Assembly (NCBI RefSeq): GCF_004010195.1
Contig: NC_057731.1
Location: 35,385,945 to 35,449,944, forward strand
Reading direction: 5' to 3'
DNA from: Chiloscyllium plagiosum
Lineage: Eukaryota
DNA: 64,000 nt
Positions 5,224 to 64,000 of the stretch are shown one piece after another. A program made the translations under genes and the position numbers. The notes under the pieces are model-generated. The model saw nothing but the letters and a program-made list of their open reading frames with translations. It was not told the origin of the DNA and searched no databases. Position 1 is the first letter of the stretch; each line of letters begins with the position of its first letter.

Positions 5224-6242
5224 CTGTAATTTAAAGATTAAAAAAATGGCTTTTCTGTTATGCTGTTAATGTTGATAAAACCCAGTTTATAAACATCATT
5301 GCCTAAAGGGTACAAAAAACAAAATGATTTTCCATGCAGTATTCAAGCAGCATACATCTTTTTAAAGACATTTATGCAAGATATATGTACCTCTTGGTAC
5401 AGAACTACTCAATAATCAACCATTAGTTGATCTGACCAGTGCAGAGTTAGTTGATCCCAGTGCAAATAGTCCCAGCAACCCTACAAAATTTCCAGATCAT
5501 AACTACTTTCATGTAACCCTTGCTAGAATGATATATATAAAACAGTTTAATGCTTCCTGCTGCGCTTCTCCAGCAACACATTTCCATCTAATGCTTCCAT
5601 AGTCAAGCAGCTTGCTATTGAGCATTACACAAGCAGATCTCTCATTTTTTGGGGTGATGCTGAAAGTCTACCCAGCTTTAGATACTCCATTAGGAAAGAC
5701 AGGAAGGGGCAGCACTGAGAAATATTTAAAAGGTAATAAAATAAGGCTGTATTAGCCTTTAATTACTTGGTATGAGTACAATTTCCTTCATAGTAAGACC
5801 TATTTCAGTATAATATTTTGTAATCTACACTTCCCCTGGGCATATCTTTTGTTTCTTTACCTGTCCCATTACCATTCCCTTTAGGTACCGATTCTCCAGC
5901 TTTTTTGTAAGTTAATGTCTCCAAACCTCCTTCCTTTTTGCTCTTCATCCTCCCTCCCCCATTTCACCTGTTTAAAACTGATACATCTCTAAATTTTGCC
6001 AGCTCTCGTGGAGGATTGACCTTAAATGTTAACGCTGTACACAATTCTCTGTTAATTCTCTCCACAGATGCTCCCTGATGTGCTGAGCATTTCCAACAGT
6101 TTTTAAAAATTATATATAATTAGGTTCTTTCCAACCTATAACTTTAAAGCAAATAGCCTACAAAATGAAGAGACATAATTCGTTAAGACGTACAGGATTA
6201 AATAAACAAATCAGACATAATTTTGAATCATCTTGGCCCCAC

Positions 6243-6980: not shown

Positions 6981-8851
6981 CTTTCAAACAACACAGAGAA
7001 AGAAAGGAATTAAATTAAAACATGTAGCAGTCGGCTGGTGATAAAGAGCTAAAATAAATTATTTAAACACTTTTTCAATCTTATGGGCCTGGAAAGGATC
7101 GTTTGCCTTCATATGATATTTCTTTGCCTTATACTCTGTCAAGGCATCAAACTATTTATTTAATAAAAGTTAAAATAGTGGTGAACAAAATGTCATTAAG
7201 TGTTGTACATTAATATCACAAGCTATCATTTCTAGACTGTTCCATGTTGGGATGGGTACAGGCTGCCTGGTGCTAAGAATATACCAAATTATTTTTGGAA
7301 ATTATATGGTGCATTTGAAGTTGAACAGGCCATTCTGCTAGGAAACTTTATTACAATAACCATTTGAACTGATAAAACACCTCAGACATAGAATAACATC
7401 CCTAGGCACTTCACAAGGTTGTAAGGGGTAAGGGGTTGGTGGTGCAGAAAGCCTAAAAAAAAAGAGGAAAAGATTAGGATGGGTGGGCAAAAGCTTGGTC
7501 AAAGATACACTAAAGGAGGAGAAGAAGATCGATTGATTTAGGAAGCCAATTTCAGACCTAGGTGGGCAAAGCCCTGTCACCAAAATCCAGCTAAAGAGAA
7601 CAGGTGAGACATGAAAGGCTAGAATCAGAGGACTGAGCATTTAGAATGCTGGAGGAGGTTACAGATAGGCAGGGAGGGATTTAAATGTAAGGCTGAAACC
7701 TGGTCATTGGAGGGCTGGGAATCAAATCAATTCTAAGGAAGGGTCTCTCAACCGGAAACATTAACTCTGACTTGTCCACAAATGATGCCAGACCTGCTGA
7801 GCTTTTCCAATAACATCCACATTTCTTCCATTTTTTATTGACTTCGAATCAATGTTGGTCAGTGTGGATGGGGTAATGGTGGGAGGAATGTGGTGTGAGA
7901 AGTAGAATTTTGGAGAAGTTGGTTTACAGAGCTCAGATGATAGGCGGCTAGCTAGGAAAGCACTGGAATACTGTAATCAAATCTAAAGACATCAAATGTA
8001 TGGATGAGGATTTCAAATGTACAGAGCTGAGGCATGATGAAAAGTCATGATGATGCCAAGATGGGTGAATGGACTTTATATGATAGGGAGGATATGGGGC
8101 AAATAGAAATCCAAGATTACAAATAATTCCCTTGAGGTGTGGGATGAGCTCAATCACATTACACCTGACTTATACCTTCACCCCATTTAACCGCTTTTGA
8201 TCTACAAGCTTTGAAAACATTACCTGAAGAAAAAAATGCATTTAAACAACATTCACAGCATTCTGGAGTAGATATTCCCAAATATCCAATTGCTTTTCAT
8301 TCAAAAAAATGTTTCCTAGCTTTCCTGGTAAATGGTCTAACTCTAATTTTAAGATCTTATCACTTTGCGAATTACCCAATCTGGAAATATAGTTTCCCTA
8401 CATCATCCAACCTTTTATAATTTTAGACAACTCATTTAGATCACGCATCATCCTTTGAACACATACAGAAACCATCATCTTATATTCTATTTTATCACAA
8501 CGTTGAGCCAGTCAGAAACTTGTGACCCAGATTTTGTGTGGGCAGCTTTGAGAACTTTTTCACAGAATCGTGGATGTAAAATGTGTTTTGCTGTAATGAC
8601 TCTCTTCCAGAAATATATTCCCATGCACATGGGAATCTTGAGGCTTACTGACTAGACTGAACAATAATTAGTTGTCAGCACTCATTTAATTTTCATCTAC
8701 TGTCAATCTTGTATAAACTTGAAGTATATTCTATTAACTTTTATTAACCTGCACTATAGTATGCCTGACAGAAAGAAACCGACAGTGTCAATGGAAACGG
8801 GTTTGCACATAGTTTCACGAAAGCTGATGAGAAAGAAAAGCAGCAACTTAC

Positions 8852-20325: not shown

Positions 20326-22140
20326 AACTCTGTTTGTTTTGGAGCTGATTTTAATTTTTATTCTTCATTGCGGATGGACTTTCCAGTGAGAGTAATTTAC
20401 TGAATCTACCCGATTAGAACTGTTCAGTTCTTACTATTGTTATGATTTTCTCTTAAACTTGCTGTTCTATTGAAAGAAAATGTTTCTTCAAGTCTCCTCT
20501 TAACTACAGCCACTCTTGGCTGCTATCACATTAGTGAGACTGCCCTTCAACAGTTCTGTGGTCTTGACATCCTTTGTAAAGCAAGGTGGAGTTTAATCTT
20601 ATTTTAAGGTCTAAAAATGTTACGTCCTGTAATCAAGCAAATGATTTGCATTAATCTTAACTAATCTCTGATTCTGTATGTTTTGCTCTTGTTTGTGAAA
20701 CATAACATCTTAGATTTTTGCACCTTTTAACAGCCTTGCCACAAATAAAACAACGGTTGATGCTGTATTAAGGATGGTCCCAAGATCCACTGAGTTTTCA
20801 GAAATTGTTACAATGCACATTCACAGTCTTGCATCAGTTAAGAGTGAAGGAAGCACACTTGTGATTTATTTCTGATTTTAAATCTCACGATTTTACTTGA
20901 GCTAAATGGAGTATCTGTTTTCCCCCATTCCCCAACATAAATACCACAAGACATTGGTTAAGCCACAGTCTGTTCTGAAAGTAAATTAACAAAAAGTGAC
21001 TTTGTAATAGATCACCTCTTTTGTTTAGAACTTAAAAAAACCATTGTAGGCAGCTAAAAATACATCACATCTCAACTGCATACCATTCACCATGTTAACC
21101 ACACACACAGATGCCTTCTAACTGTGGCTTTGCTTTATTTATAGATTCATATTCATCAGCAAATACAAAGCATCCTAATCCAAAGTATCCTATTATTACC
21201 CACCTTAATATTTCAATACTACAGTTAAAGGGGAGAAACACAAATGAGTCAGAAAGTTTATTTCTCTAAAAGGAATTTCAACAATAGTATCTTAGTCACA
21301 AACTAAAAGAAAGATAAAGATTGCACTTATGCCACAGCTTTCACATCCAATGGATGTCCTGAAATATTGAACAGCCAAAAAAAACAAATACTTCTGAAGT
21401 ATCAATACAGGAAACACCACAGCCAATTTGTACGCAACAAGTTCCCACATCATCATACAACTGACCAGATAATCTGTTCAGACAAAAACAAAGAACTGTG
21501 GATGCTAAAGATCAGAAACAGAAACAGAACTGGAGCTCTGAATAAGCGTCACCGCACTCAAAACATCAGCTCTGCTTTCTCTCCACAGATGCTGCCAGAT
21601 ATGCTGTGTTTCTCCAGCAATTTCTGTAATCTATTTAGATGTTGGCCAGGCAAAAGGAGAAGGCCTTTAATCTTTAAATAATGCCTTGGGATCTGTTACA
21701 TCAATTGACCAGGCATAATGGGCACAATTTAACAGCTCATCAAAAAGACAAGGCATTGTCATACTGCACTGAAGCAATGGACAAAGAGATTTTTCTTAAA
21801 ATCAGTTTTGCCTCTTCATTTAGTTTGGGATCTGTTTAAAAAGCTTAGTACTTGCTTAAATATTAAGCATGTTGCACTTATTTAAATGTTTGCACTCCTA
21901 TAAAAATCATACCCAATAGTTTATACGGGTGCAGCACTGAACCATACAGACTAGAAAGACCCAGTTTCAAACCTGAGTTTGTCGAGTGGTAATGGTCTTT
22001 TTGATTGATATGGTCTGATGAAAATATCTGTCTAATCGCACTCAGGGGGAGGTAGAAAAATGGTAGTTTGAACCAGGTCCTAACAGAAACAGTGTCTAAT
22101 GAAAAGTAAGATTAGAGGAGGAATTATTCAAATGCCTTAC

Positions 22141-22245: not shown

Positions 22246-22774
22246 CTAAAACAGAAGGAAATATTACAAAGTCAGTGTTTTGACAGTAAAGTTAAATTCT
22301 TACAAAGTCAACAGGTAAAATTACTGGAACAACAACATTTCAAAACAATAAAGTGAATTGACCTTCTGACCCAGCTGTCTACCTGGGGAATGAGCTTGAC
22401 TGTCCATGCATATGAATATATACTCAGTAAAACACTAGACTGTTTGTAAGTTTGTTGTTTCAGTCAAGGGAGCTACTGTTTATTCTCAAATTGTATGTCA
22501 CTAGGGCCCAGATTGTGCCACAGCTGTGTAGTGCCACTCAAATCACCTAAACATCAAATGTTATCAATTCAGTATCATAATCTCAACACATTGTTCATGT
22601 CCATACCTCTGGGCCAGTGGGTTTGCGTTCAAGTCCTACCACAGGATCTGATAGCCACAACCATGTGTCTTAACACATCCAGGAGAAAGTGAGGTCTGCA
22701 GATGCTGGAGATCAAAGTTGAAACTTTATTGCTGGAACAGCACAGCAGGTCAGGCAGCATCCAGGGAACAGGAG

Positions 22775-22810
22775 ATTCGACGTTTCGGGCACAGGCCCTT
22801 CTTCAGGAAT
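22775..22810 (-). ncRNA. Minimal type I hammerhead ribozyme motif (intact core)
   Basis: AUUC-CUGAAGA-A-GGGC-CUGU-GCCC-GAAAC-GUC-GAAU: helix I AUUC/GAAU, 4-bp helix II, palindromic ACGU helix III; predicted cleavage after 22779. Confidence 0.8.
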
Positions 22811-22984
22811 GAGCAGAGAGTGTTCAGCAGGAGAAGATAAAAGGTAGGGAGGAGGGACTTGGAGGAGGGGCGTTGGAAATGTGATAGGTGGAAAGAGGTC
22901 AAGGTGAGGGTGATAGGTCGGAGTAGGATGGAGGCGGAGAGGTCAAGAAGAAGACTGCAGGTCAGGAAGGCGACCTCACTTTCT

Positions 22985-23152
22985 CCTGTATCCCATTGCA
23001 GACGACCTGCCCTCCCCCTGTCTGTATTCCATTGCAGACGCTCTGCCCTCCCACTGTCTGTATCCCATTACCGACGATCTGCCCTCCCCTGTCTGTATCT
23101 CATTGCAGACGATCTGACCCTCCCCCTGTCTGTATCCCATTGCAGACGCTCT
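22985..23152 (+). repeat. ~36-bp minisatellite (about 4.5 units)
   Basis: Unit ~TCTGCCCTCCCCCTGTCTGTATCCCATTGCAGACGA; mirrored at 23614-23778. Confidence 0.9.
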
Positions 23153-23272
23153 GTCTCCATTTGACATCTTATTGAATGACTATCCTGGTGCATGAGCAAA
23201 CTGAGCTCCATCTCCTTCATCCGGTTCATTAGAATAGATTGCAATTTGTTGATGATCTCATACAGATCCCTG

Positions 23273-23613
23273 NNNNNNNNNNNNNNNNNNNNNNNNNNNN
23301 NNNNNNNNNNNNNNNNNNNNNNNNNNNNNNNNNNNNNNNNNNNNNNNNNNNNNNNNNNNNNNNNNNNNNNNNNNNNNNNNNNNNNNNNNNNNNNNNNNNN
23401 NNNNNNNNNNNNNNNNNNNNNNNNNNNNNNNNNNNNNNNNNNNNNNNNNNNNNNNNNNNNNNNNNNNNNNNNNNNNNNNNNNNNNNNNNNNNNNNNNNNN
23501 NNNNNNNNNNNNNNNNNNNNNNNNNNNNNNNNNNNNNNNNNNNNNNNNNNNNNNNNNNNNNNNNNNNNNNNNNNNNNNNNNNNNNNNNNNNNNNNNNNNN
23601 NNNNNNNNNNNNN
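23273..23613. other. Assembly gap (N run)
   Basis: Run of N. Confidence 1.
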
Positions 23614-23778
23614 CGTCTGCAATGGGATACAGACAGGGGGAGGGTCAGATCGTCTGCAATGAGATACAGACAGGGGAGGGCAGATCGTCGGTAATGGGAT
23701 ACAGACAGTGGGAGGGCAGAGCGTCTGCAATGGAATACAGACAGGGGGAGGGCAGGTCGTCTGCAATGGGATACAGGA
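23614..23778 (-). repeat. ~36-bp minisatellite, inverted copy
   Basis: CGTCTGCAATGGGATACAGACAGGGGGAGGGCAGA units. Confidence 0.9.
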
Positions 23779-23951
23779 GAAAGTGAGGTCGCCTTCCTGA
23801 CCTGCAGTCTTCTTCTTGTCCTCTCCGCCTCCCTCCTACTCCGACCTATCACCCTCACCTTGGCCTCTTTCCACCTATCACATTTCCAACGCCCCTCCTC
23901 CAAGTCCCTCCTCCCTACCTTTTATCTTCTCCTGCTGAACACTCTCTGCTC

Positions 23952-23987
23952 ATTCCTGAAGAAGAGCCTGTGCCCGAAACGTCGAAT
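23952..23987 (+). ncRNA. Minimal hammerhead motif (one helix II mismatch)
   Basis: ATTC-CTGAAGA-A-GAGC-CTGT-GCCC-GAAAC-GTC-GAAT. Confidence 0.7.
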
Positions 23988-24089
23988 CTCCTGTTCCCTG
24001 GATGCTGCCTGACCTGCTGTGCTGTTCCAGCAATAAAGTTTCAACTCTTAACACATCCAAACATGTTGATTATAAACAAAATCTGAAAG

Positions 24090-24245
24090 GGCAACTGATG
24101 CTGTAAATCAGAAACAAAAACAGAAATTGCTAGAAAAGCTCAGCAAGTCTGGCAGCATCTGTTCTGAGGAAGAGTCACTAGATCAGAAACGTTAACTCTG
24201 ATTTCTCTCCACAGATGCTACCGGACCTGCAGGGTTTATCCAACA
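24090..24245. mobile_element. Short Penelope-derived hairpin element with degenerate hammerhead (24161-24196, +)
   Basis: GGCAGCATCTG...CAGATGCTACC arms; GTT-CTGAGGA-AGAGTCACTAGATCA-GAAAC-GTT-AAC. Confidence 0.65.
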
Positions 24246-40022: not shown

Positions 40023-41765
40023 CTGTACAGATGAATGAGACAATTATACCAATCAAAAATAATTATTTCTATATTGAAGGTTGTATGTAAGGATCATGTT
40101 ACTTGGCATTTCACTGGGCCACTCTTGAAAATCAATCTAACAATGAAAATGCAATAAAGGTTTTCAAAACATAAAGACCACAATCTTGTAGCTTACATCA
40201 GGGGGTTTTTATTATTTCAATTATGGAAAACTGGCACAAGTCATGAAGGGTCATGGCAGAGTCTTCTAATTGTTGTAATTGTTATTCTCAGGTAAACTGT
40301 TACCAGTCCTGAAGCACGGAACAAAATAATTCCCATTCGTAGCAAGAAGCCCTGCCTGCTTAGAGCTCCTATGAGAAATTAGTCTACACAGAGTGCATAT
40401 GATTCTAAACAATGATTGGAATGTTAAAAAAAATAGTTTGTATCCAAACTTGTAATCTGCAACACCATCAGTAGATACTCCATCATGGAAGTTAAAGATG
40501 GAAAATGACTTCTTACACAGGGACTCCTCTATAAAAAGGATCAGGTCACCCTGAATCAAGGATCGAAAATAGTGTGAATAAATCCGAAGAGGCCCATAAC
40601 TGTGGGCAAAGGAAATTTTAACTCTTGGGTGGAAATTCATTGGTATCTAGTTTTGCTGAAAATGCAGGGACGTGACTGTATTGAGTGCCAAAACAGGACA
40701 ACTAAGTCTGGCTTGAAATCGGGCCTGAGGCTGTGTTATTACTAATGGCTCTTTAGCACGTCTTTAAGCAGCTTGATCGCTTGAAGAAATTAATGTCAGC
40801 CACTTGCCTCATTGTCCTGTGTATTAGTGGAGGGAAAGAACAGCTTTGTTAGCTCAAACATTGTGGAATTGGGAGGGGTAAGCAATGTTCCTGCATCTTC
40901 AGCTACATTATCATAATCCACAGCAGAGTAACCCAGCACTGCACAAAATCCAATTTAGTCAATAAGCACAAAGTATACAGATGCTGGAAATCTGAAATAA
41001 AAACAAAAAGTGCTACAGGTCTGGTAATATCTGTGGAAAGAGAGAGAAACAGAGTTAATCTTAGTGTTAAGTCCAATATGACTCAAAGCGGCATACTGAA
41101 CTCAAAGTGTTAACTGTTTCTCAATCCACAGATGCTGACAAACCTCTTGAGTTTCTTTAGCACTTTCTGTTTCATTCCAGTTTAGCAGAGGAAGCCTGAA
41201 ATAGGAAATAGCCTACTTATTTATGGGAATGCTGGCACGAGGTTTTATTTTAAGTGACTACCAGGGGGATCTAAAAAAAAGTCTTTCCCAATATTGGGTT
41301 TGATGTATTTCAACCTGTCTTTGAAGGCAAGATGTTGGCTGTGAAATTGGATATTTTTTCATCAGTTTTACACATATGAAACAGGATTAATTTCGAGCCT
41401 TCTGTTTTTTAATAGCTAAATACTCATGCAAAATCCTCTGTGTTGAAATCTATATATAACTTTGTCTTTCAAACAGTTATTTTTAGCTGGAGAGGCATGG
41501 CTGCAGGCAGAACACTCATATTGCATGACTGCTGTACAAAATGGACACTGATTTGAAAACAAGTTTGGCTCCCAGTAAGGAAGATGTGAAGCAAAATAAT
41601 GAGAAAAACATTGACATTAAATGTCAATTTAAATATTCTTACACTTGATTAATGTTTCACATCTTTTATTAACTAACTTATATAAGTTTAAAATTAACTT
41701 ACAGATAATTCAAACATGCACATGATAGAGAAAATATTGAGACTACTTTCTGCTTGGAGACTAAC

Positions 41766-46587: not shown

Positions 46588-48116
46588 AACAAGTCAGGTA
46601 AAGGACTGTGCTTCTGGTTTTATACAATTAAGGTCAGATGCATTTAGTATTTTCTGTTCCAAACAAAATGTGCCATCGCAGTAGTGCACTATTATGCCTA
46701 ACTTTGCAGATGTTATTTTCATTTAGAATTTTCTCTGTGTTACAGATATTCTAGATCCTTAGGAACAACAAGCCAGGTCTCTCACCATATAGTCCCTTCA
46801 GTATTATTTTAAACAGTTAGTTACATACCAGAGGATTTTAGTGAATTAGAGGAAGATATATACAGATTGAATCATTTAACATAAGTATTCCTCATGTTTA
46901 AGCAGGGCTGTCTGATTCTACTTCACTTAACTGAACCAACCACATGTCTACAACAGTAAGTCACAAGCTAGGTTTTATTGCAGGAAGTAACTCCCCTCCT
47001 GGCTCCCTAAAACCTGCCCACTAGCTGTAAGTCATGGTGGGATCATGGTGGAATACTCTGCACTTGCCCAGGTGAGTTTAGCTTTAACAACACCCAAGAA
47101 GCTGAACACCATCCAAGAGATGGCAGCAACAAAAATCAGAAAATGCTGGAAAAACTCAGCATGTCTGGTAGCATCTGTGGAGAGAAAGGAGAGACACCCT
47201 TGAAGACAAAGCAGCCTGTTTGAGCAGCAGCCCATCCACCATTGGCAGAGCTCACTTTCTCCATTATTACCACTATATGAAATTGCAGCAGCTTTTTCAA
47301 AACCGCCTCCAAAGAAAAATGCAAACTCTACTACCTGGAAGGAAAAGACCAAAGTTACATGGGAACACCATCACCTCCAATTTCCCCTCCAAGTCACCTT
47401 CCATACTAACTTCAGACTTCTTTCAGTGTAGCCAAAGAAAAACCCTCAAAACCTCTCCCCAAAGTATCAGGGGAATTATACAGCACATAAAATGCTGCAG
47501 TTTGATCAGTAGTATTCACCATCTTCTCAAATCAATTAGGAATTGTCAATAAATATAAAGTCCTGCGAATGATTGGAAAGAAACTCGAAGAAATTCAGGA
47601 GATTTCTCTGGAAATCTTTACACCTAATCTTTCAAGTAGCATACTATTTCAAATTGAAAGAACCGGATTAGATCAAAGACCACGAGATGGAAAGACCCAA
47701 GAGCTTCATCATAAATAATTGCTAATAGTTTCACTATTAATGAAATAGAATCAAAATGCAACCATGACCACACGCAACACCAGCAGTGCCAACATACTTC
47801 AAATGTTCCATCAATCCTTGCTGGAATTAATATTTTCGAGAATATTGTATATATCTCTCAAAGTGAACAGATAGCATCATTGGAAGAAGCAAGATTTTGG
47901 TTTCTTACAGGAACTGAAGGATTGCCAACTGCAGCCCATGCAGTACTGTCAGAATGGAAGGAGGAGAATGAAAGGATACTGATACAGTTCCCCAAGGAGG
48001 AAGAGATAATAGAATATAGATAGTTTAAGGCCTCTCTGCAGTATCCATTCTAAATAAAATAACTACATTCTCTCAAAAATTATCTTGCAAGTTATAATGT
48101 TAGAAATGATACTTAC

Positions 48117-49933: not shown

Positions 49934-50442
49934 CTGTAAGGAAGCACCTTTGTTCAATAATGGAGCTTCTTTGTGTTTGTATGTAAAAAGAAAGCACAGT
50001 GACATAATGAGGGAAACTTTCTTGGATGCAGCAAATATCAGAAAATGGCAAACATCTAATATTTGTCTTTTAATGCCTTTACTACTACAGAACTAGGAAG
50101 AGCTCAACTAAACTATTATCATTTTTGTGAAACATCAAAATGCTAATTGCTGATTTACGTCATAGCCCACTTTACATGTATCACAATTTTTAACATGTAT
50201 CAACCCCACAGGTTCTGAAAATACATTGGGTAGTACCTGCCCACATCTCTGTAGCTGACTTTGCCAAGGTTTCCTGTTTACTAGACAGGTGCTTTACCTA
50301 CCAACCTTCGCATAAACCAAATCATCCGCCGACATTTCCGCCACCTCCAAACAGAGCCCACCACCAGGGATATATTCCCCTCCCCACCCCTCTCCGCTTT
50401 CCGCAAAGACCGTTCCCTCCGTGACTACCTGGTCAGGTCCAC

Positions 50443-50780
50443 NNNNNNNNNNNNNNNNNNNNNNNNNNNNNNNNNNNNNNNNNNNNNNNNNNNNNNNNNN
50501 NNNNNNNNNNNNNNNNNNNNNNNNNNNNNNNNNNNNNNNNNNNNNNNNNNNNNNNNNNNNNNNNNNNNNNNNNNNNNNNNNNNNNNNNNNNNNNNNNNNN
50601 NNNNNNNNNNNNNNNNNNNNNNNNNNNNNNNNNNNNNNNNNNNNNNNNNNNNNNNNNNNNNNNNNNNNNNNNNNNNNNNNNNNNNNNNNNNNNNNNNNNN
50701 NNNNNNNNNNNNNNNNNNNNNNNNNNNNNNNNNNNNNNNNNNNNNNNNNNNNNNNNNNNNNNNNNNNNNNNNNNNNNNNN
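50443..50780. other. Assembly gap (N run)
   Basis: Run of N. Confidence 1.
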
Positions 50781-50892
50781 CTGACCTATCACCTTCATCT
50801 CCTCCCCCACTGACCTATTGTACTCTATGCTACTCTCTCCCCACCCCCACTCTCCTCTAGCTTATCTTCCACGCTTCAGGCTCTCTGCCTTT

Positions 50893-50928
50893 ATTCCTGA
50901 TGAAGGGCTTTTGCCCGAAACATCGATT
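50893..50928 (+). ncRNA. Minimal hammerhead motif (helix III broken by G>A)
   Basis: ATTC-CTGATGA-A-GGGC-TTTT-GCCC-GAAAC-ATC-GATT. Confidence 0.65.
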
Positions 50929-51430
50929 TTGCCTGTCCTCGGATATTGCCTGTCCTCGGATGCTACCTGAATTGCTGTGCTCTTCCAGCACCACTAATCC
51001 GGGATCTGGTTTCCAGCATCTGCAGTCATTGTTTTTACCTCTTTGCCAAGGTTTTGTTGAGTAATGTGAAGGGCCCACAGTTTAGGAGCCTTTAACAAAC
51101 CCACCAATGTACATGCAGATAGTCTCACATCCACCCTTCCTGGCCTCATCAGGCATAGATGCACCAAGGACAAGATAGTTGCCCAAAATAAGGCTTGTAA
51201 TGTGGGAATTTGATGCCCTTGTCCCTGCCTCACACAATGAAAATGATACTTCAGGACTCAGCACTGCAAGACTATCCTGAAAATTAGTTTCTGACCAGTG
51301 TCATGAACTCCACCAACATTATGGCAGGAGTCCCAACTGAATAGTCACAAATTCTTGGGGCAAAATATAATTAAAAAGCAATTTTACTGCGTATGGCACT
51401 TAAATTTTACAATACCTTCAAGCTGCTTAC

Positions 51431-51906: not shown

Positions 51907-52140
51907 GCTGAAAACAAAAAATGCTGGAGATCACAACGGGTCAGGGAGCAACCATGGAGAGGAAGCAAGTTAACCTTTCGGGTCGAGATAACTCTTCATC
52001 AGAGCTGAAGATGAAGAGTCATCTAGACTTGAAATGTTAGCTTGCTTTCTCTCCATGGATGCTGCCTGACCTGTTGTGATCTCCAGCTTTTGTTTTGCTT
52101 TGAGTATATATTCCAGCACCTACAGTAATTTGCTCCTACA
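51907..52140. mobile_element. Penelope-derived hairpin element with two back-to-back degenerate hammerhead cores
   Basis: Arms GCTGGAGATCACAACGGGTCAGG... / ...CCTGACCTGTTGTGATCTCCAGC; centre ACTCTTCATCAG-agctgaa-GATGAAGAGT. Confidence 0.75.
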
Positions 52141-54380: not shown

Positions 54381-55685
54381 AAGGTGAAAGGGAGCTGACA
54401 ACATATCAATTTGGGTAGTCAACCTTCCAAAATCAAACCAACACTTTGCAGCACAAACTAAAATAAAGGACTGCGGATGTTGGAAATCTGAAACAAGAAC
54501 AGTAATTGTTGGAGAAACTCAGATGGTCTGGCGGAATCTGTTGCGAGAAAAGAATTAACGCTCCGAGTTTAGTGTCCCTTCTTCAGAATTTCTGTTTTTC
54601 TGTGCAGTGTCTTTATTATGGAGTCTCTGTTGTACTCTAAAATATTTTTGCTGTTCAAAGCCACACAAACTATTATACATTATTGTTTGTATGCACATCT
54701 TTAACAATAAAGTAAGTGTATCTCGTAAATCACTTCCTTTCTGTAGCTGTCTATTTGATTCTCAAATGGATATTTTCACAAACGTACAGTCTTGCGTTAA
54801 AGTTGTTATTGAGGAAGTTACGAATATCAGCACACGTCTGCCTTGCATGTCATCTCCACAAAATCAACCTCAAAACATCAGTCATGGCCAAGGATTGAGA
54901 AAGGAAATAAAACTGGCCCCAACATCTCAATAGCTGATGGTATTCAGGTTTTAATATTCTGCAGCAATTTCATCACTACCCTTAAACTTAACCAGCTCCT
55001 TATGTTCAAGGCTTCCAACATTCAAGGCAATGGGCCTATTAGATGGAGAGATAGTGCAGACCTGATGGCCAAAGGGTCTCTTCTGTACTATAGGATTCTA
55101 TGATTCGCCCATGTTAATGACTTAGATAATAGGATAAAAAGTCACACCCAGATTTGCTGATGGTACAGAGATGGATGGTATTTTAAGTAGTGTAGATGGA
55201 AGTACAAAACTACAAAAATGTATTGAGAGTTAAATGAATGAGAAAAATTGGGGCAAATGGATTAAATGTAGAAAAATGGAGGTTGTCCACTTTGAATGTA
55301 CAAGTTATAGAACAGGGTCCTTTCTAAGTGGTGGGAAGTTAAAAATAATGGATGTTCATAAAAACTTGAGGTCTGGGTAAATAGATCACTAAAATATCTT
55401 GACACAGAATACAAACAAAAAGGCTAATGAATGCTCGTCTTTGTATCTAAGTTATTAGGATGCCAGAGGATAGAAGTCATGTTTCAGCTATACAAAGTCA
55501 TGATTAGACCATATCTTGAGGAAGAGAACTGTATCTTAAAAAGTGTATACTGGATTGGAAGGAAGTTGACCAAAATGATATCTGTACTCGAAGCATTAAA
55601 TTACAAGATTATATGAACTGTTCCTCAGAACTTAGAGGATAAAAGGCTGATTTGTTCTAAGTTTTCAAACTATGAAGGGGAACAG

Positions 55686-55890
55686 GAGAAAGTGAGGTCT
55701 GCAGATGCTGGAGATCAGAGCTGAAAATGTGTTGCTGGAAAAGCGCAGCAGGTCAGGCAGCATCCAGGGAACAGGAGAATCGACGTTTCGGGCATAAGCC
55801 CTTCTTCAGGCATAAGCCCCTGAACGTCGATTCTCCTGTTCCCTGGATGCTGCCTGACCTGCTGCGCTTTTCCAGCAACACATTTTCAGC
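55686..55890. mobile_element. Penelope-derived perfect hairpin element with 15-bp TSD and hammerhead core (55778-55810, -)
   Basis: Perfect 68-bp inverted repeat 55720-55787 / 55823-55890; TSD TATGAAGGGGAACAG at 55671-55685 and 55891-55905; minus strand CTGAAGA-A-GGGC-TTAT-GCCC-GAAAC-GTC. Confidence 0.88.
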
Positions 55891-55954
55891 TATGAAGGGG
55901 AACAGAGAATGGATAAAGAAAAACATTTTGCCGATTGGAGGGTACAGGTCAAGG

Positions 55955-60460: not shown

Positions 60461-63377
60461 CTGCACTAATACTGGAAGGAGTGAATGTGGAAAATAGTGG
60501 ATGGAATGTCAACAAAGTGAGCTGCTTTGTCCCAGATGGTGTCAAGCCTCCTGGGTGTTGCTGGCAATGGAGTATACTTCATCACATTCCTGACTTGTTT
60601 TGTCAATGGTGGAGAAAGACTGTGGAGCCAGGTCAGATAGACACTGCAGATTTCTCAACTGCAGACCTGCTTCAGCAGCCAATGTATTTGACAGGCAAGG
60701 ATTATATTTTTGGTCACTACTACAGCTTTAAATCTCAGAAATGCTCTAGCATATGTGGAGATGGTTAGATTCTCTTGTTGGAGATGAGCATTGCCAGGCA
60801 CTCATGTGGTGCGAATGTTACGAGCCACATCAGGCTGGATGTTGTCCATGTTTTGTTGTAGGTGGGTTACAGACTGTGTTTAAATACAGTTATACTTGGA
60901 AGCATAGCACCTACACTTACTTATAGCAGACGTTGTGGAACAAAATTTGCTAACTGAGAATCCTGCACTCACTCCCTATCAGAACTGTGGGTATACCTGT
61001 ACCACATGGACCATAGCAGTTCGAGAAAGCAGCTTACCACCACCTTCTGGTGGGCAATTAGCAATGGGCAGAAGTGTGCTGGCCTAGCCAGTGATACCCA
61101 TGTCCCATTTGTGAATTTTTAAAAACGTGATAGACTAAGCATGAGTGAGCCACATTTTTAGTAAGGATCCTATTTCAAAATTCTTACTGAGAGAGAGTGT
61201 TTAACTTGTGTATAGAATGGGATCATAGTAAGAGATCACACCCATATCTGTGAAGTTGCAAACAATGCTAAACACAGTCCAGTGTTCGTCCCAACCTCTG
61301 CCCTTATAACAAAAGGGAAGGTCAATGCTAAAACAGCTCAAAGATCAGCATTTCATCCACTAGCCTAAACATTTCTCTGTTCAGCCATCAATGCACTGCA
61401 GCTGCAATGCATTCCGTCCACAGGGTGTACTGCCACAGTTCACACACACCTTTTTCATCGAGCACGGTGACTACACTCACCATGAAAAACAAAAACAGGG
61501 TCTGCAAGAAAACACCATCACTGTTCAATGTCTCTCTCAGTCAACACTGTCCTCCTAAGGAAATGTGTCATTGCCCCAATATTTGTTGGGTCAGCAACTT
61601 GAAACTCCTGTTTAACAGTATAATAAAGGGACTGACAGCAAGGTACAGAGAAATTTAAGAAGAAAACTCATCACTATTCTTTTCAGGGAGACTAGGCATT
61701 TGTAATAAATACCAGCTTTGGCAGTATGCTGAGAATGATTTTATATAAAGAAAAAAACCATACAGAAACACAGCTGAATGTCTGCAGCTGCATTGCTTAG
61801 TTGTGTCTCATTGTCAGCAGTAGCTTAGTCATGAGTGCTCTCATTTATAAGTCAATTCAAATCCAAGGAATTGAGCACAAAGTTTGGACTAACATTCAAC
61901 TACAAAACTGCTGTGTTGTGGGAGCTCTGTCTTTTGGATGCCATTTAAACCAATAACCCATCTGCTTTATACTTCTGTTTGTTCACTGTTGCTGGGTCAA
62001 AATCCTAGAATTCCCTTCCTTGTGGGTCGACCTACAACACATGGACTGCAGTGGTTCAAGAAGGCAGCTCACTACCACCTTAAGGACAACTAAGCATGGG
62101 AGATAAATGCTGGCCAGCCAGAGGTGCCCACATCCATGATAGTTTAAAAAAAAGAGTAGAAGCAAATCATTCAGCACACTGAGTTTGCTCAGCCAATCAA
62201 TGACATGTTGGGTGATCCGATAATCCTCAATTCTATTTTCCTGCCTTATCCCCATAACTCTTGATTGTCTCACTGATTAAAAACCTGTCTCAGACTTGAA
62301 TATATTGAATGATGAAGCCTCTACAGCCCTCTTCAGTAAAGAAATTCACAGATTCAGTACTCTCAGAGGAAACTCCTAATTTTGTCTTAGATATGTAACC
62401 CCTTGCTCAGATTATGCCCTCTGGTTCTAGAGGGCCTCCCAAAAGAGGTAACAATCTTTTCATATTTACCCTCTCAAACCCTCAAATGGAAAGTTGATTG
62501 AGGTTAGTTGCTCATCCCTACTGTAATTGCCTTTGAATTGAGTGAGTGACTTGCTGAGCCATTCAAGAGAAGGGGAGGTAATCTGACCTTGAGTTGACAT
62601 CCCTAATGAAGATTTCTTGCCATTGTTTCATTGTAATTTGAGAGGGAACTGGAGTCCAAATTATCTTCCATTTTTTTTTGGATGACTACATTTCAAAAAT
62701 ATTCATTAACTGTAAAGTGCTCTGGGAAGTCATTATTTCAATGAAAGGTGCTATATAAATACAATATTCTCTTTCTTTCTCACTTTGCAATTCTAGCACC
62801 TGCTTGACAAATATCAAAAGTTAATATTTCCATAGAAGGCAGTCACAGCAAAACAAAAAAGGATATTGCAAAACAATTTCCAATAAAATACTTTTAAAGA
62901 TAACTATGATAAGACCTTTTACATTTGATACAGTTGAAGCTTTCTGTTCACTCAAAGCCTGGTCTGAATATTTAGTCCAATGCTTCATTACCAGGAGAGA
63001 GTTAGTGAGCGCTGCAGTGACATCAACAGCACGGATTCAATTCCCATACTGGTTGAGGTTACCACAAAGGTCTCTCCTTTTCAACTTCTCCACTTGCTGG
63101 AGGTGTGGAGAGTCTCAGATCAAACCACTACCCAGTCATATAAATCAGATTATGGTAATTTTACTTTTCACTCTAATAAGAGTTTTAAAATGCACTGTCC
63201 AATCAAAGCAGGAGTTTTCAGACTGAAATTTTCTGAATACTTGCTTATATGATTGTATTTCCATTTAGTAACAGGTAAATTCATTACCAGCCCCACAGCT
63301 TTAAAATTCCCATTACAGATTCACTTGATTCTAGAGTAGCAGCATAATCATCAGTTTGAACAAATTAGTGCCTACAC

Positions 63378-64000
63378 AGAGGTAAAAACAATGACTGCAG
63401 ATGCTGGAAACCAGATTCTGGATTAGTGGTGCTGGAAATAGCTTCGAAATCGACGTTTCGGGCTCACCTTCCACCCTACCAACCTTCGCATAAACCAAAT
63501 CATCCGCCGACATTTCCGCCACCTCCAAACAGACCCCACCACCAGGGATATATTTCCCTCCCCATCCCTTTCCGCCTTCCGCAAAGACCGTGACTACCTG
63601 GTCAGGTCCACGCCCCCCTACAACCCACCTCCCATCCTGGCACTTTCCCCTGCCACCGCAGGAACTGTAAAACCTGCGCCCACACCTCCTCCCTCACCTC
63701 AATCCAAGGCCCCAAAGGAGCTTTCCACATCCATCAAAGTTTTACCTGCACATCCACCAATATCATTTATTGTATCCGTTGCTCCCGACGCGGTCTCCTC
63801 TACATTGGGGAGACTGGACGCCTCCTAGCAGAGAGCTTTAGGGAACATCTCCGGGACACCCGCACAAATCAACCAAATCGCCCCGTGGCTCAACATTTCA
63901 ACTCCCCCTCCCACTCTGCCGAGGATATGGAGGTGCTAGGCCTCCTCCACCGCCGCTCCCTCACCACCAGACGCCTGGAGGAAGAACGCCTCATCTTCCG
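63378..64000 (+). mobile_element. Penelope-like element fragment with GIY-YIG endonuclease and 5' inverted terminus (runs off the window)
   Basis: Frame from 63636 reads PGTFPCHRRNCKTCAH...FTCTSTNIIYCIRCSRRGLLYIGETGR...FREH...VAQHFN. 63378-63463 is an inverted copy of the terminus seen at ~50912-51041. Confidence 0.9.

What the first reader, a model, noticed from the sequence alone, without database searches (positions are those of the whole stretch)
55671..55905. Tiny retroposed hairpin whose loop is a hammerhead: candidate non-autonomous ribozyme-hairpin element class
Seen: a ~205-bp insert with a 15-bp TSD and a perfect 68-bp inverted repeat, whose turn-around lies inside a hammerhead core. 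It has no coding sequence, and one arm has about 33 extra terminal nt. The 22682 element starts with the same terminus (GGAGAAAGTGAGGTCTGCAGATGCTGGAGATCA) and shows the same asymmetry. Inference: either a recurrent truncation/inversion product of Penelope integration, or a retrozyme-like unit mobilised in its own right.
Basis: partly seen in the sequence, partly recalled or inferred. Interest (0 to 1): 0.7.

Follow-up and report, generated by a model that had tools for sequence, protein, structure and literature searches.

The report
Truncated fold-back Penelope retroelement insertion
This 204-base hairpin-shaped insert in a shark-type genome is two short end pieces of an abundant Penelope-like jumping gene joined head to head, likely made in a single insertion event, and its hammerhead ribozyme motif is damaged and predicted not to fold, so it is likely an ordinary by-product rather than a new self-copying element.

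Summary
The structure is real: a 16-nt direct repeat flanks 204 nt holding a perfect 69-nt inverted repeat; one arm is 34-36 nt longer. This is the published insertion pattern of Penelope-like elements (PLEs): 5'-truncated end, inverted partner, one-sided 30-40-nt tail, minimal hammerhead. Related ends in the window adjoin PLE-type GIY-YIG coding sequence. Both arms stop at the same base, 1 nt upstream of the hammerhead core; the short arm lost helix II (19 nt); an 8-nt templated filler joins them. The remaining core has lost helix I, and its cleavage site is predicted locked in the stem. In public runs the family is very abundant, turn-arounds near the core recur with different junctions, depth across this junction is 0.04-0.12% of arm depth, no RNA read crosses it (793 cover the arm just before), and a related species appears to lack the insert. 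The junction's exact copy number was not obtained, so a small amplified subfamily is not excluded. Earlier notes of this scan report the same kind of hairpin elsewhere in this genome. Mildly interesting residue: ends cluster at the hammerhead's 5' edge.

The parts
55670..55685 (+). left target-site duplication (16 nt; last G shared with the element terminus)
55685..55718 (-). one-sided extension ('tail', 34-36 nt): 3' end of the PLE-sense strand, present only on the long arm
   Evidence: tail as described in PMC8557442, PMC3846280, PMC11167929
55719..55810 (-). long arm: 5'-truncated PLE terminal-repeat piece, ending 1 nt upstream of hammerhead C3
   Evidence: 116/126 nt identical to 22682-22807; family sequence continues differently after 55810
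55786..55809 (-). minimal hammerhead core: CUGAAGA, unpaired A, 4-bp helix II, GAAA; predicted cleavage site between 55782 and 55781; helix I reduced to one pair
   Evidence: motif scan; comparison with the copies at 22806 and 50897 and pairing probabilities; no Rfam hit at gathering threshold
55811..55818 (+). 8-nt junction filler, an exact copy of helix II sequence at 55793-55800 with microhomology on both sides
55819..55891 (+). short, inverted, tail-less arm: equals the long arm 55719-55810 with one 19-nt deletion that removes helix II; ends at the same base as the long arm
55890..55905 (+). right target-site duplication (first 2 nt shared with the short arm)
22668..24059 (.). comparison element of a sister subfamily: 14-nt TSD, tail on the left arm only, 433-nt arms 99% complementary, turn-around far upstream of the hammerhead (across an assembly gap)
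50259..51054 (+). related PLE copy: 14-nt TSD, 5'-truncated coding piece, gap, terminal repeat with hammerhead (50897) and tail; 71% identical to the 55686 arm
63375..64000 (+). related PLE copy: tail plus short inverted arm ending in helix II, followed by 5'-truncated GIY-YIG coding sequence (runs off the window)

Best explanation
The insert is two short 3'-end pieces of an abundant Penelope-like retroelement joined head to head between a 16-nt target-site duplication, likely made in one target-primed insertion event, and its single hammerhead motif is predicted unable to fold. Shown: TSD, arms, 34-36-nt one-sided tail, both arms ending at the same base just upstream of the hammerhead core, a 19-nt helix II deletion in the short arm, an 8-nt filler copied from helix II, kinship of the arms to terminal repeats that adjoin GIY-YIG coding sequence. 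Inferred: the element's endonuclease made staggered nicks 15-16 nt apart; each nick primed reverse transcription on family RNA, one from the outer start site (with tail) and one from the inner start site (without tail), as the two start sites of the anole Poseidon protein would predict; both cDNAs stopped at the 5' edge of the hammerhead, one skipping the helix II stem-loop; the two ends were joined by microhomology with a templated filler. The copy has no coding sequence and is likely dead on arrival. The hammerhead is in the loop because arms of this and related families often end at or inside it, not because the hairpin is built to present a ribozyme.
For: Anatomy. Same tail and asymmetry in the 22682 element, whose turn-around is elsewhere. 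Related terminal repeat joined to coding sequence at 50259-51054 and 63375-64000; the 63594-63998 frame matches GIY-YIG (E 0.0011, below the curated cut-off) and 21 longer proteins, best 90% identical, one of 894 aa with RT then C-terminal GIY-YIG. Literature passages: inverted 5'-truncated copy plus 30-40-bp tail is the typical PLE insertion (PMC8557442, PMC3846280); tail lies between two RT start sites and both strands are nicked and extended (PMC11167929); minimal hammerheads are mostly single, in truncated PLEs, some head to head at 100-700 bp (PMC4209133); 83,580, 59,995 and 64,597 contigs of three DNA runs lay on the stretch; of 15 joints shown (47 hidden) 11 change strand and 8 of these have one end at 55801-55810 with differing partners; this insert's own junction is not among the listed rows; depth at 55822 is 0.12%, 0.05% and 0.04% of depth at 55805; RNA reads 793 at 55805, 1 at 55820, none at 55821-55848; a 669-nt contig of organism B aligns to 55309-55685 and runs on unlike the element for at least 103 nt. 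Predicted fold: cleavage triplet and helix I 3' strand paired in the stem.
Against: The autonomous ORF of this exact subfamily is not in the window; the link to coding sequence goes through a 71%-identical family. Depth across the junction in DNA contigs is not zero (3,469, 1,231, 1,082 against flank depths of 5.1, 5.7, 9.8); indels at 55822 explain only 55%, 37% and 48% of it and the rest is unresolved. Some other joints reach summed depths of 60-135, so identical joints do recur. Perfect hairpins may be lost in RNA libraries. The 22682 element looks like a second-generation copy of a non-coding stub, so stubs may be re-mobilised. Twin priming and fold-back self-priming cannot be told apart from this one sequence. 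The letters of organism B's loose end were not shown, so the empty site is inferred.
Confidence: 0.7

Rival explanations
1. Same origin (one PLE insertion), different route: one cDNA ran to the hammerhead's 5' edge, slipped back over helix II, folded back on itself and copied itself, skipping the helix II hairpin; resolution at the inner site cut off the tail from the copy.
For: Arms are 100% identical over 69 nt; the junction parses equally as slip, snap-back and skip; PMC3846280 reads palindromic junctions as self-priming and PMC8557442 ascribes the tail to endonuclease resolution.
Against: The short arm starts at the same offset (34-36 nt) as in the 22682 element (32-35 nt), which matches an RT start site measured in vitro for another PLE (PMC11167929); both arms stop at the same base, simple if each is a cDNA.
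Confidence: 0.2
2. The hairpin is one member of a non-autonomous family that is transcribed and re-inserted as a unit by PLE proteins (retrozyme-like or SINE-like).
For: It keeps the tail end that PLE proteins need in cis (PMC3846280, PMC11167929); junction-spanning depth in DNA contigs is hundreds of times flank depth and partly unresolved; other joints recur; the 22682 element suggests re-mobilisation of a stub.
Against: Single damaged core, no tandem repeat, cleavage site in a 69-bp stem; none of the RNA reads crosses the junction while 793 cover 55805; junction depth at most 0.12% of arm depth and similar in organism B, which appears to lack this insert; a three-step junction with TSD microhomology at both ends fits formation in place. 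Re-copying a perfect hairpin RNA would also need RT to pass a stem of about -159 kcal/mol.
Confidence: 0.07
3. Assembly artefact or later rearrangement of an ordinary truncated copy.
For: No listed contig spans the junction; hairpins trouble assemblers.
Against: A clean 16-nt TSD, a short arm beginning at the family's second start offset, a non-mirror junction, and a contig of run X1 running from the left flank 23 nt into the element (record 1).
Confidence: 0.03

Closest known systems
Insertion units of canonical endonuclease-bearing Penelope-like elements (Penelope/Poseidon, Neptune): pLTR, adjacent inverted 5'-truncated copy, one-sided tail (PMC3846280, PMC8557442)
   Same: Head-to-head inverted arms of the 3' end, 34-36-nt tail on one arm, TSD, microhomology at joints, hammerhead in the terminal repeat
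   Different: Extreme truncation: no coding part left; both arms end at the hammerhead's 5' edge; TSD of 16 nt against 8-10 nt in the rotifer examples read
Minimal hammerheads (min-HHR) of metazoan PLEs (PMC4209133)
   Same: Type I core, unpaired base between positions 9 and 10.1, G10.1-C11.1 pair, no helix III loop, mostly found as single motifs in truncated copies
   Different: Helix I reduced to one pair by truncation; helix II only 4 bp; partner arm has lost helix II
Anole Poseidon element PAc (PMC11167929)
   Same: Two start offsets separated by a 30-40-nt tail downstream of the hammerhead
   Different: Start sites and both-strand priming were measured there; here only inferred from insertion ends; the target here is not an ATT-centred site by any test I ran
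Metazoan non-LTR retrozymes (PMC7229834)
   Same: Small, non-coding, carries a type I hammerhead motif, TSD longer than 4 bp
   Different: Retrozymes are head-to-tail tandem repeats with canonical hammerheads and under 50% GC, expressed as abundant circular RNA; this is a single head-to-head unit with one minimal, damaged core and no junction reads

Membership tests
PLE inverted-truncated insertion | Arms homologous to a terminal repeat lying 3' of an RT + C-terminal GIY-YIG ORF | tested here: met
   Indirect: 71% identity to the repeat at 50891-51025, which shares a TSD-bounded unit with a coding piece 90% identical to the one at 63475-63611; downstream frame is GIY-YIG-like and matches RT+GIY-YIG proteins. 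ORF of the exact subfamily not in the window.
PLE inverted-truncated insertion | Inverted 5'-truncated copy adjoining the 5' end, head to head | tested here: met
PLE inverted-truncated insertion | 30-40-nt tail on one end only | tested here: met
   34-36 nt here, 32-35 nt at 22682
PLE inverted-truncated insertion | Target-site duplication and empty orthologous site | tested here: met
   16-nt TSD; organism B contig stops aligning exactly at 55685 and runs on; its letters were not shown
min-HHR of metazoan PLEs | Core boxes, extra base after A9, G-C at base of helix II | tested here: met
min-HHR of metazoan PLEs | Helix I of about 4 bp able to form | tested here: not met
   One pair only; 4 pairs in the 22806 copy; 3' strand predicted paired in the long stem
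min-HHR of metazoan PLEs | Self-cleavage (as dimer or protein-assisted) | not testable with these tools
   Needs in vitro transcription; no RNA end pile-up in run X21 (table 6 empty) but that library is poly(A) single-cell
Non-LTR retrozyme | Head-to-tail tandem repeats, two or more ribozymes in the same orientation | tested here: not met
   One core, head-to-head arms
Non-LTR retrozyme | Canonical hammerhead with loop 1-loop 2 contact | tested here: not met
   No Rfam family reached its gathering score in the window; no helix I or loop 1
Non-LTR retrozyme | Abundant linear and circular RNA of unit length | tested here: inconclusive
   No read across the junction among 3,154 laid from about 2% of one poly(A) library; such a library would miss circles
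Amplifying non-autonomous family | Identical internal junction at many loci with different TSDs | tested here: inconclusive
   Upper bound 0.04-0.12% of arm depth, residual not resolved; not repeated in the 64-kb window

The most novel reading that the evidence does not exclude
The 5' edge of the hammerhead defines a short natural template unit in these shark PLE families, and hammerhead-bounded hairpin stubs, this one among them, are re-inserted in trans as low-copy non-autonomous families.
Probability: 0.08. Interest if true: 0.6.

Novelty: new member of a known kind. Interest (0 to 1): 0.2.

Why it matters
As an individual insert it matters little: it is one of a great many PLE stubs. Two points have some value for specialists. 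First, young, base-perfect hairpins with an inferable empty site record the still unsettled PLE insertion mechanism; here both arms stop at the same base and start at two fixed offsets, which fits priming from both nicks. Second, arm ends seem to cluster at the hammerhead's 5' edge rather than at its cleavage site; if a genome-wide count confirms this, it points to an RNA 5' end or an RT stop there and makes the role of the PLE hammerhead testable from genome data. If identical junctions proved to amplify, there would be a new kind of non-autonomous PLE derivative.

Tried and rejected
No whole genome is held for this window, so no direct copy count was possible. Rfam at gathering threshold: 0 matches in 64 kb. 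A terminus pattern found 0 matches in metagenome contigs; viral and prokaryote collections were not searched. Look-up of earlier findings by sequence gave 0 look-alikes although the family is abundant, so it is uninformative. Run search: no RNA holder listed, not used as evidence. Folding 71 nt around the intact hammerhead at 22806 gave helix II but no stability above shuffles (z 0.82). The 67-aa frame inside the 22682 element matched no Pfam family. Local alignment defined the arms of the older hairpins at 24.1 kb and 21.5 kb poorly, and TSD searches found nothing of 7 nt or more for 4 of 10 candidates, only 7-9-nt matches for 3, and 14-16 nt for 3. Literature searches for shark-specific or 'non-autonomous Penelope' hairpins listed nothing relevant; repeat databases (Repbase, Dfam) could not be searched and may already hold this family. 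Rejected: MITE or DNA transposon (arms are unequal, join head to head with a filler, and are PLE ends; TSD 16 nt); miRNA-like host hairpin (insert is lineage-specific and repeat-derived); working ribozyme in the loop (cleavage site in the stem).

Full report
Observation. The insert is there as described. A 16-nt exact direct repeat lies at 55670-55685 and 55890-55905 (chance about 8e-7 for 40x40 positions). Its last G is also the first base of the family terminus, so 15+1 is an equal reading. The 204 nt between contain a perfect 69-nt inverted repeat, 55719-55787 / 55823-55891 (2 nt inside the right TSD), around a 35-nt loop. The minus strand folds at -167.1 kcal/mol, z -20.6 against 200 shuffles. 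The long arm has 34-36 extra outer bases. The element at 22682 shares the first 33 nt exactly and 116 of 126 overall, has a 14-nt TSD and a 32-35-nt asymmetry.

The hammerhead. A motif scan of both strands found four cores in the window: 55809-55786 (minus), 22806-22783 (minus), 50897-50920 (plus) and 52005-52034 (plus). The first has CUGAAGA, an extra A, a 4-bp helix II, GAAA and a GUC triplet with no helix III loop: the minimal hammerhead of metazoan PLEs (PMC4209133; passages and sections 5 and 9 read). Rfam gave no hit at gathering threshold. The loop is not a whole ribozyme. The long arm stops 1 nt upstream of C3, so only one pair of helix I remains, against four in the 22806 copy. A14 onward, the cleavage triplet and the 3' strand of helix I lie in the perfect stem, with predicted probability of being unpaired below 0.1. 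These motifs cleave poorly as monomers even when intact (PMC4209133), and the anole one needed its protein (PMC11167929; main text section read).

The junction. The short arm, read back, is exactly the long arm from 55719 to 55810 with one 19-nt deletion that removes helix II, bounded by 2-nt microhomology. So both arms end at the same base. Between them are 8 nt (55811-55818) that copy helix II at 55793-55800 within an 11-nt exact match. This is a templated, microhomology-bounded join of two ends.

Family. The arms are PLE 3' ends. A 71%-identical repeat with hammerhead and tail (50891-51043) lies in one unit, bounded by a 14-nt TSD and interrupted by an assembly gap, with a 5'-truncated coding piece. 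At 63375 the tail of that family and a short inverted arm ending in helix II abut the same coding sequence. Its frame 63594-63998 matches GIY-YIG at E 0.0011, below the curated cut-off, and 21 of 377 candidate longer proteins, the best 90% identical and named by its source as from a bamboo shark. Two of the 21 were scanned: an 894-aa one has RT (378-546) then GIY-YIG (794-851), the PLE order; the other gives weaker matches to both. The ORF of the exact subfamily is not in the window.

Published pattern. PMC8557442 (passages) states that PLE insertions are strongly 5'-truncated, often have an inverted 5'-truncated copy at the 5' end, and carry a 30-40-bp tail often at one end only. PMC3846280 (passages) shows this with TSDs, reads the palindromic junctions as self-priming and shows mobilisation in trans by terminal repeats alone. 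PMC11167929 shows in vitro that both strands are nicked and extended and that the tail lies between two RT start sites. PMC4209133 reports most minimal hammerheads as single motifs of truncated PLEs, some in opposite-strand pairs 100-700 bp apart. Retrozymes are head-to-tail repeats with canonical hammerheads, expressed as circles (PMC7229834, passages). No supplement was read; figures of insertion ends there may already show clustering at the hammerhead.

Does the junction recur? No genome was held, so 55309-55848 (left flank, long arm, loop, 26 nt of perfect short arm) was laid with 4 of 24 listed runs: two DNA-type contig sets of organism A, one of organism B, one raw RNA run of A (likeness 85). 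Flank depth was 5.1, 5.7 and 9.8; 83,580, 59,995 and 64,597 contigs lay on the stretch, nearly all on the arm; the tool warns that summed depth is no copy number and that some joints and loose ends went uncounted. Depth falls from 2.9, 2.5 and 2.6 million at 55805 to 3,469, 1,231 and 1,082 at 55822, that is 0.12%, 0.05% and 0.04%. Contigs with an indel at 55822 make up 55%, 37% and 48% of that remainder; the rest is unresolved and could hold exact copies. Of 15 joints shown (47 hidden), 11 change strand, 3 skip, 1 goes back; 8 of the 11 have one end at 55801-55810 with partners at 55718-55720, 55756, 55763 and 55766. Partners near 55720 may be alignment breaks between subfamilies. This insert's own junction is not among the rows shown. 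Against my reading, several other joints reach summed depths of 60-135, about 10-20 times flank depth, so identical joints recur, by microhomology or by amplification. In the RNA run (about 2% read, 3,154 reads laid) 793 reads cover 55805, 1 covers 55820 and none 55821-55848; the nominal 95% bound is 0.4%, weakened by loss of perfect hairpins in libraries; the flank had no reads. In organism B a 669-nt contig aligns from 55309 to exactly 55685 (9 substitutions, 16 gap letters in 371) and runs on for at least 103 unlike letters: likely the empty site, letters not shown. In X1 a contig runs from the flank into the element to 55708; X7 has a hole over the TSD and says nothing.

Clustering at the hammerhead. 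Loose ends at 55810 number 694, 486 and 607 contigs, share about six family bases and then give an AT-rich consensus of 0.36-0.38 agreement, against 1,779 and 1,892 loose ends at the outer terminus in X1 and X13. This suggests that many copies end just upstream of the core, but the reference stops being family sequence at 55810, so ends further upstream could not be placed and the peak is not proven. By eye, older remnants in the window agree: arms ending at or in the core at 51908-52104, about 24162, 40984-41188, about 54590, about 7732 and 63466; those at 22682 and 50897 extend well upstream; those at 5556, 6056, 21537 and 47124 are too short or decayed to place.

Mechanism. Most likely (0.7): staggered nicks, cDNA primed from each nick at the outer and inner start sites, both stopping at the hammerhead's 5' edge, joined with a templated filler. 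Fold-back self-priming of one cDNA (0.2) fits the junction as well. Either way it is one insertion event, about 0.9 in total. An amplified unit (0.07) is not excluded. Priming, stopping and joining are inferred; the sequence features are shown.

Earlier notes. After I had stated this reading, word and place look-ups returned nine distinct notes on other pieces of this genome with the same conclusion. They are unchecked AI notes and were not used as support.

Verdict. Real, neat, and of a known kind. Six literature searches listed no paper on such hairpins in sharks; repeat databases were not searchable. Interest 0.2.

Noticed in passing
window 22668-24059: Both arms of this element contain, inside the terminal-repeat piece, a ~17-nt inverted copy of the tail start followed by 4.5-4.7 copies of a 36-nt repeat. 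That looks like the end of an earlier inverted insertion plus its flank, so this may be a second-generation copy made from a read-through transcript of a non-coding stub. A 341-N gap hides the centre.
   Followed up: partly
window 23071-23271 minus strand: A stop-free frame of 67 codons runs from the unique inner part into the 36-nt repeats; it looks protein-like but has no Pfam match. Possibly a captured host transcript piece.
   Followed up: partly
window 51908-52104 (tail to about 52140): Older hairpin of another PLE-type family, 85-nt arms 86% complementary, both arms reaching the hammerhead's 5' edge, one with a 3-nt insertion in the core; only a 7-nt TSD candidate.
   Followed up: partly
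window 24085-24245, 40977-41188, 21490-21627, 54465-54593, 7731-7815, 47124-47193, 6010-6102: Decayed remnants of a further hammerhead-type PLE end family, several fold-back, several ending at or inside the core.
   Followed up: partly
window 50259-51054: 5'-truncated PLE copy with coding piece, hammerhead, tail and a 14-nt TSD, without an inverted arm; contains a 338-N gap and a short duplication just 3' of the cleavage site.
   Followed up: partly
window 55682-55685, 22679-22682, 23773-23776: All three outer termini are preceded by the same two bases (CA before the first G), hinting at a target preference or longer microhomology at the priming site; n = 3.
   Followed up: no
positions 55698, 55745, 55767, 55771, 55805: The family is split into subfamilies: this copy carries the minority base at 55698 and 55767, and a share of copies (16% of X1 depth) have U rather than A at hammerhead position 7; organism B nearly lacks some of organism A's variants, suggesting lineage-specific amplification.
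   Followed up: no
window 55453-55524: Depth in the left flank rises to 30-75 in all three DNA runs, so the flank itself contains an old low-copy repeat fragment.
   Followed up: no
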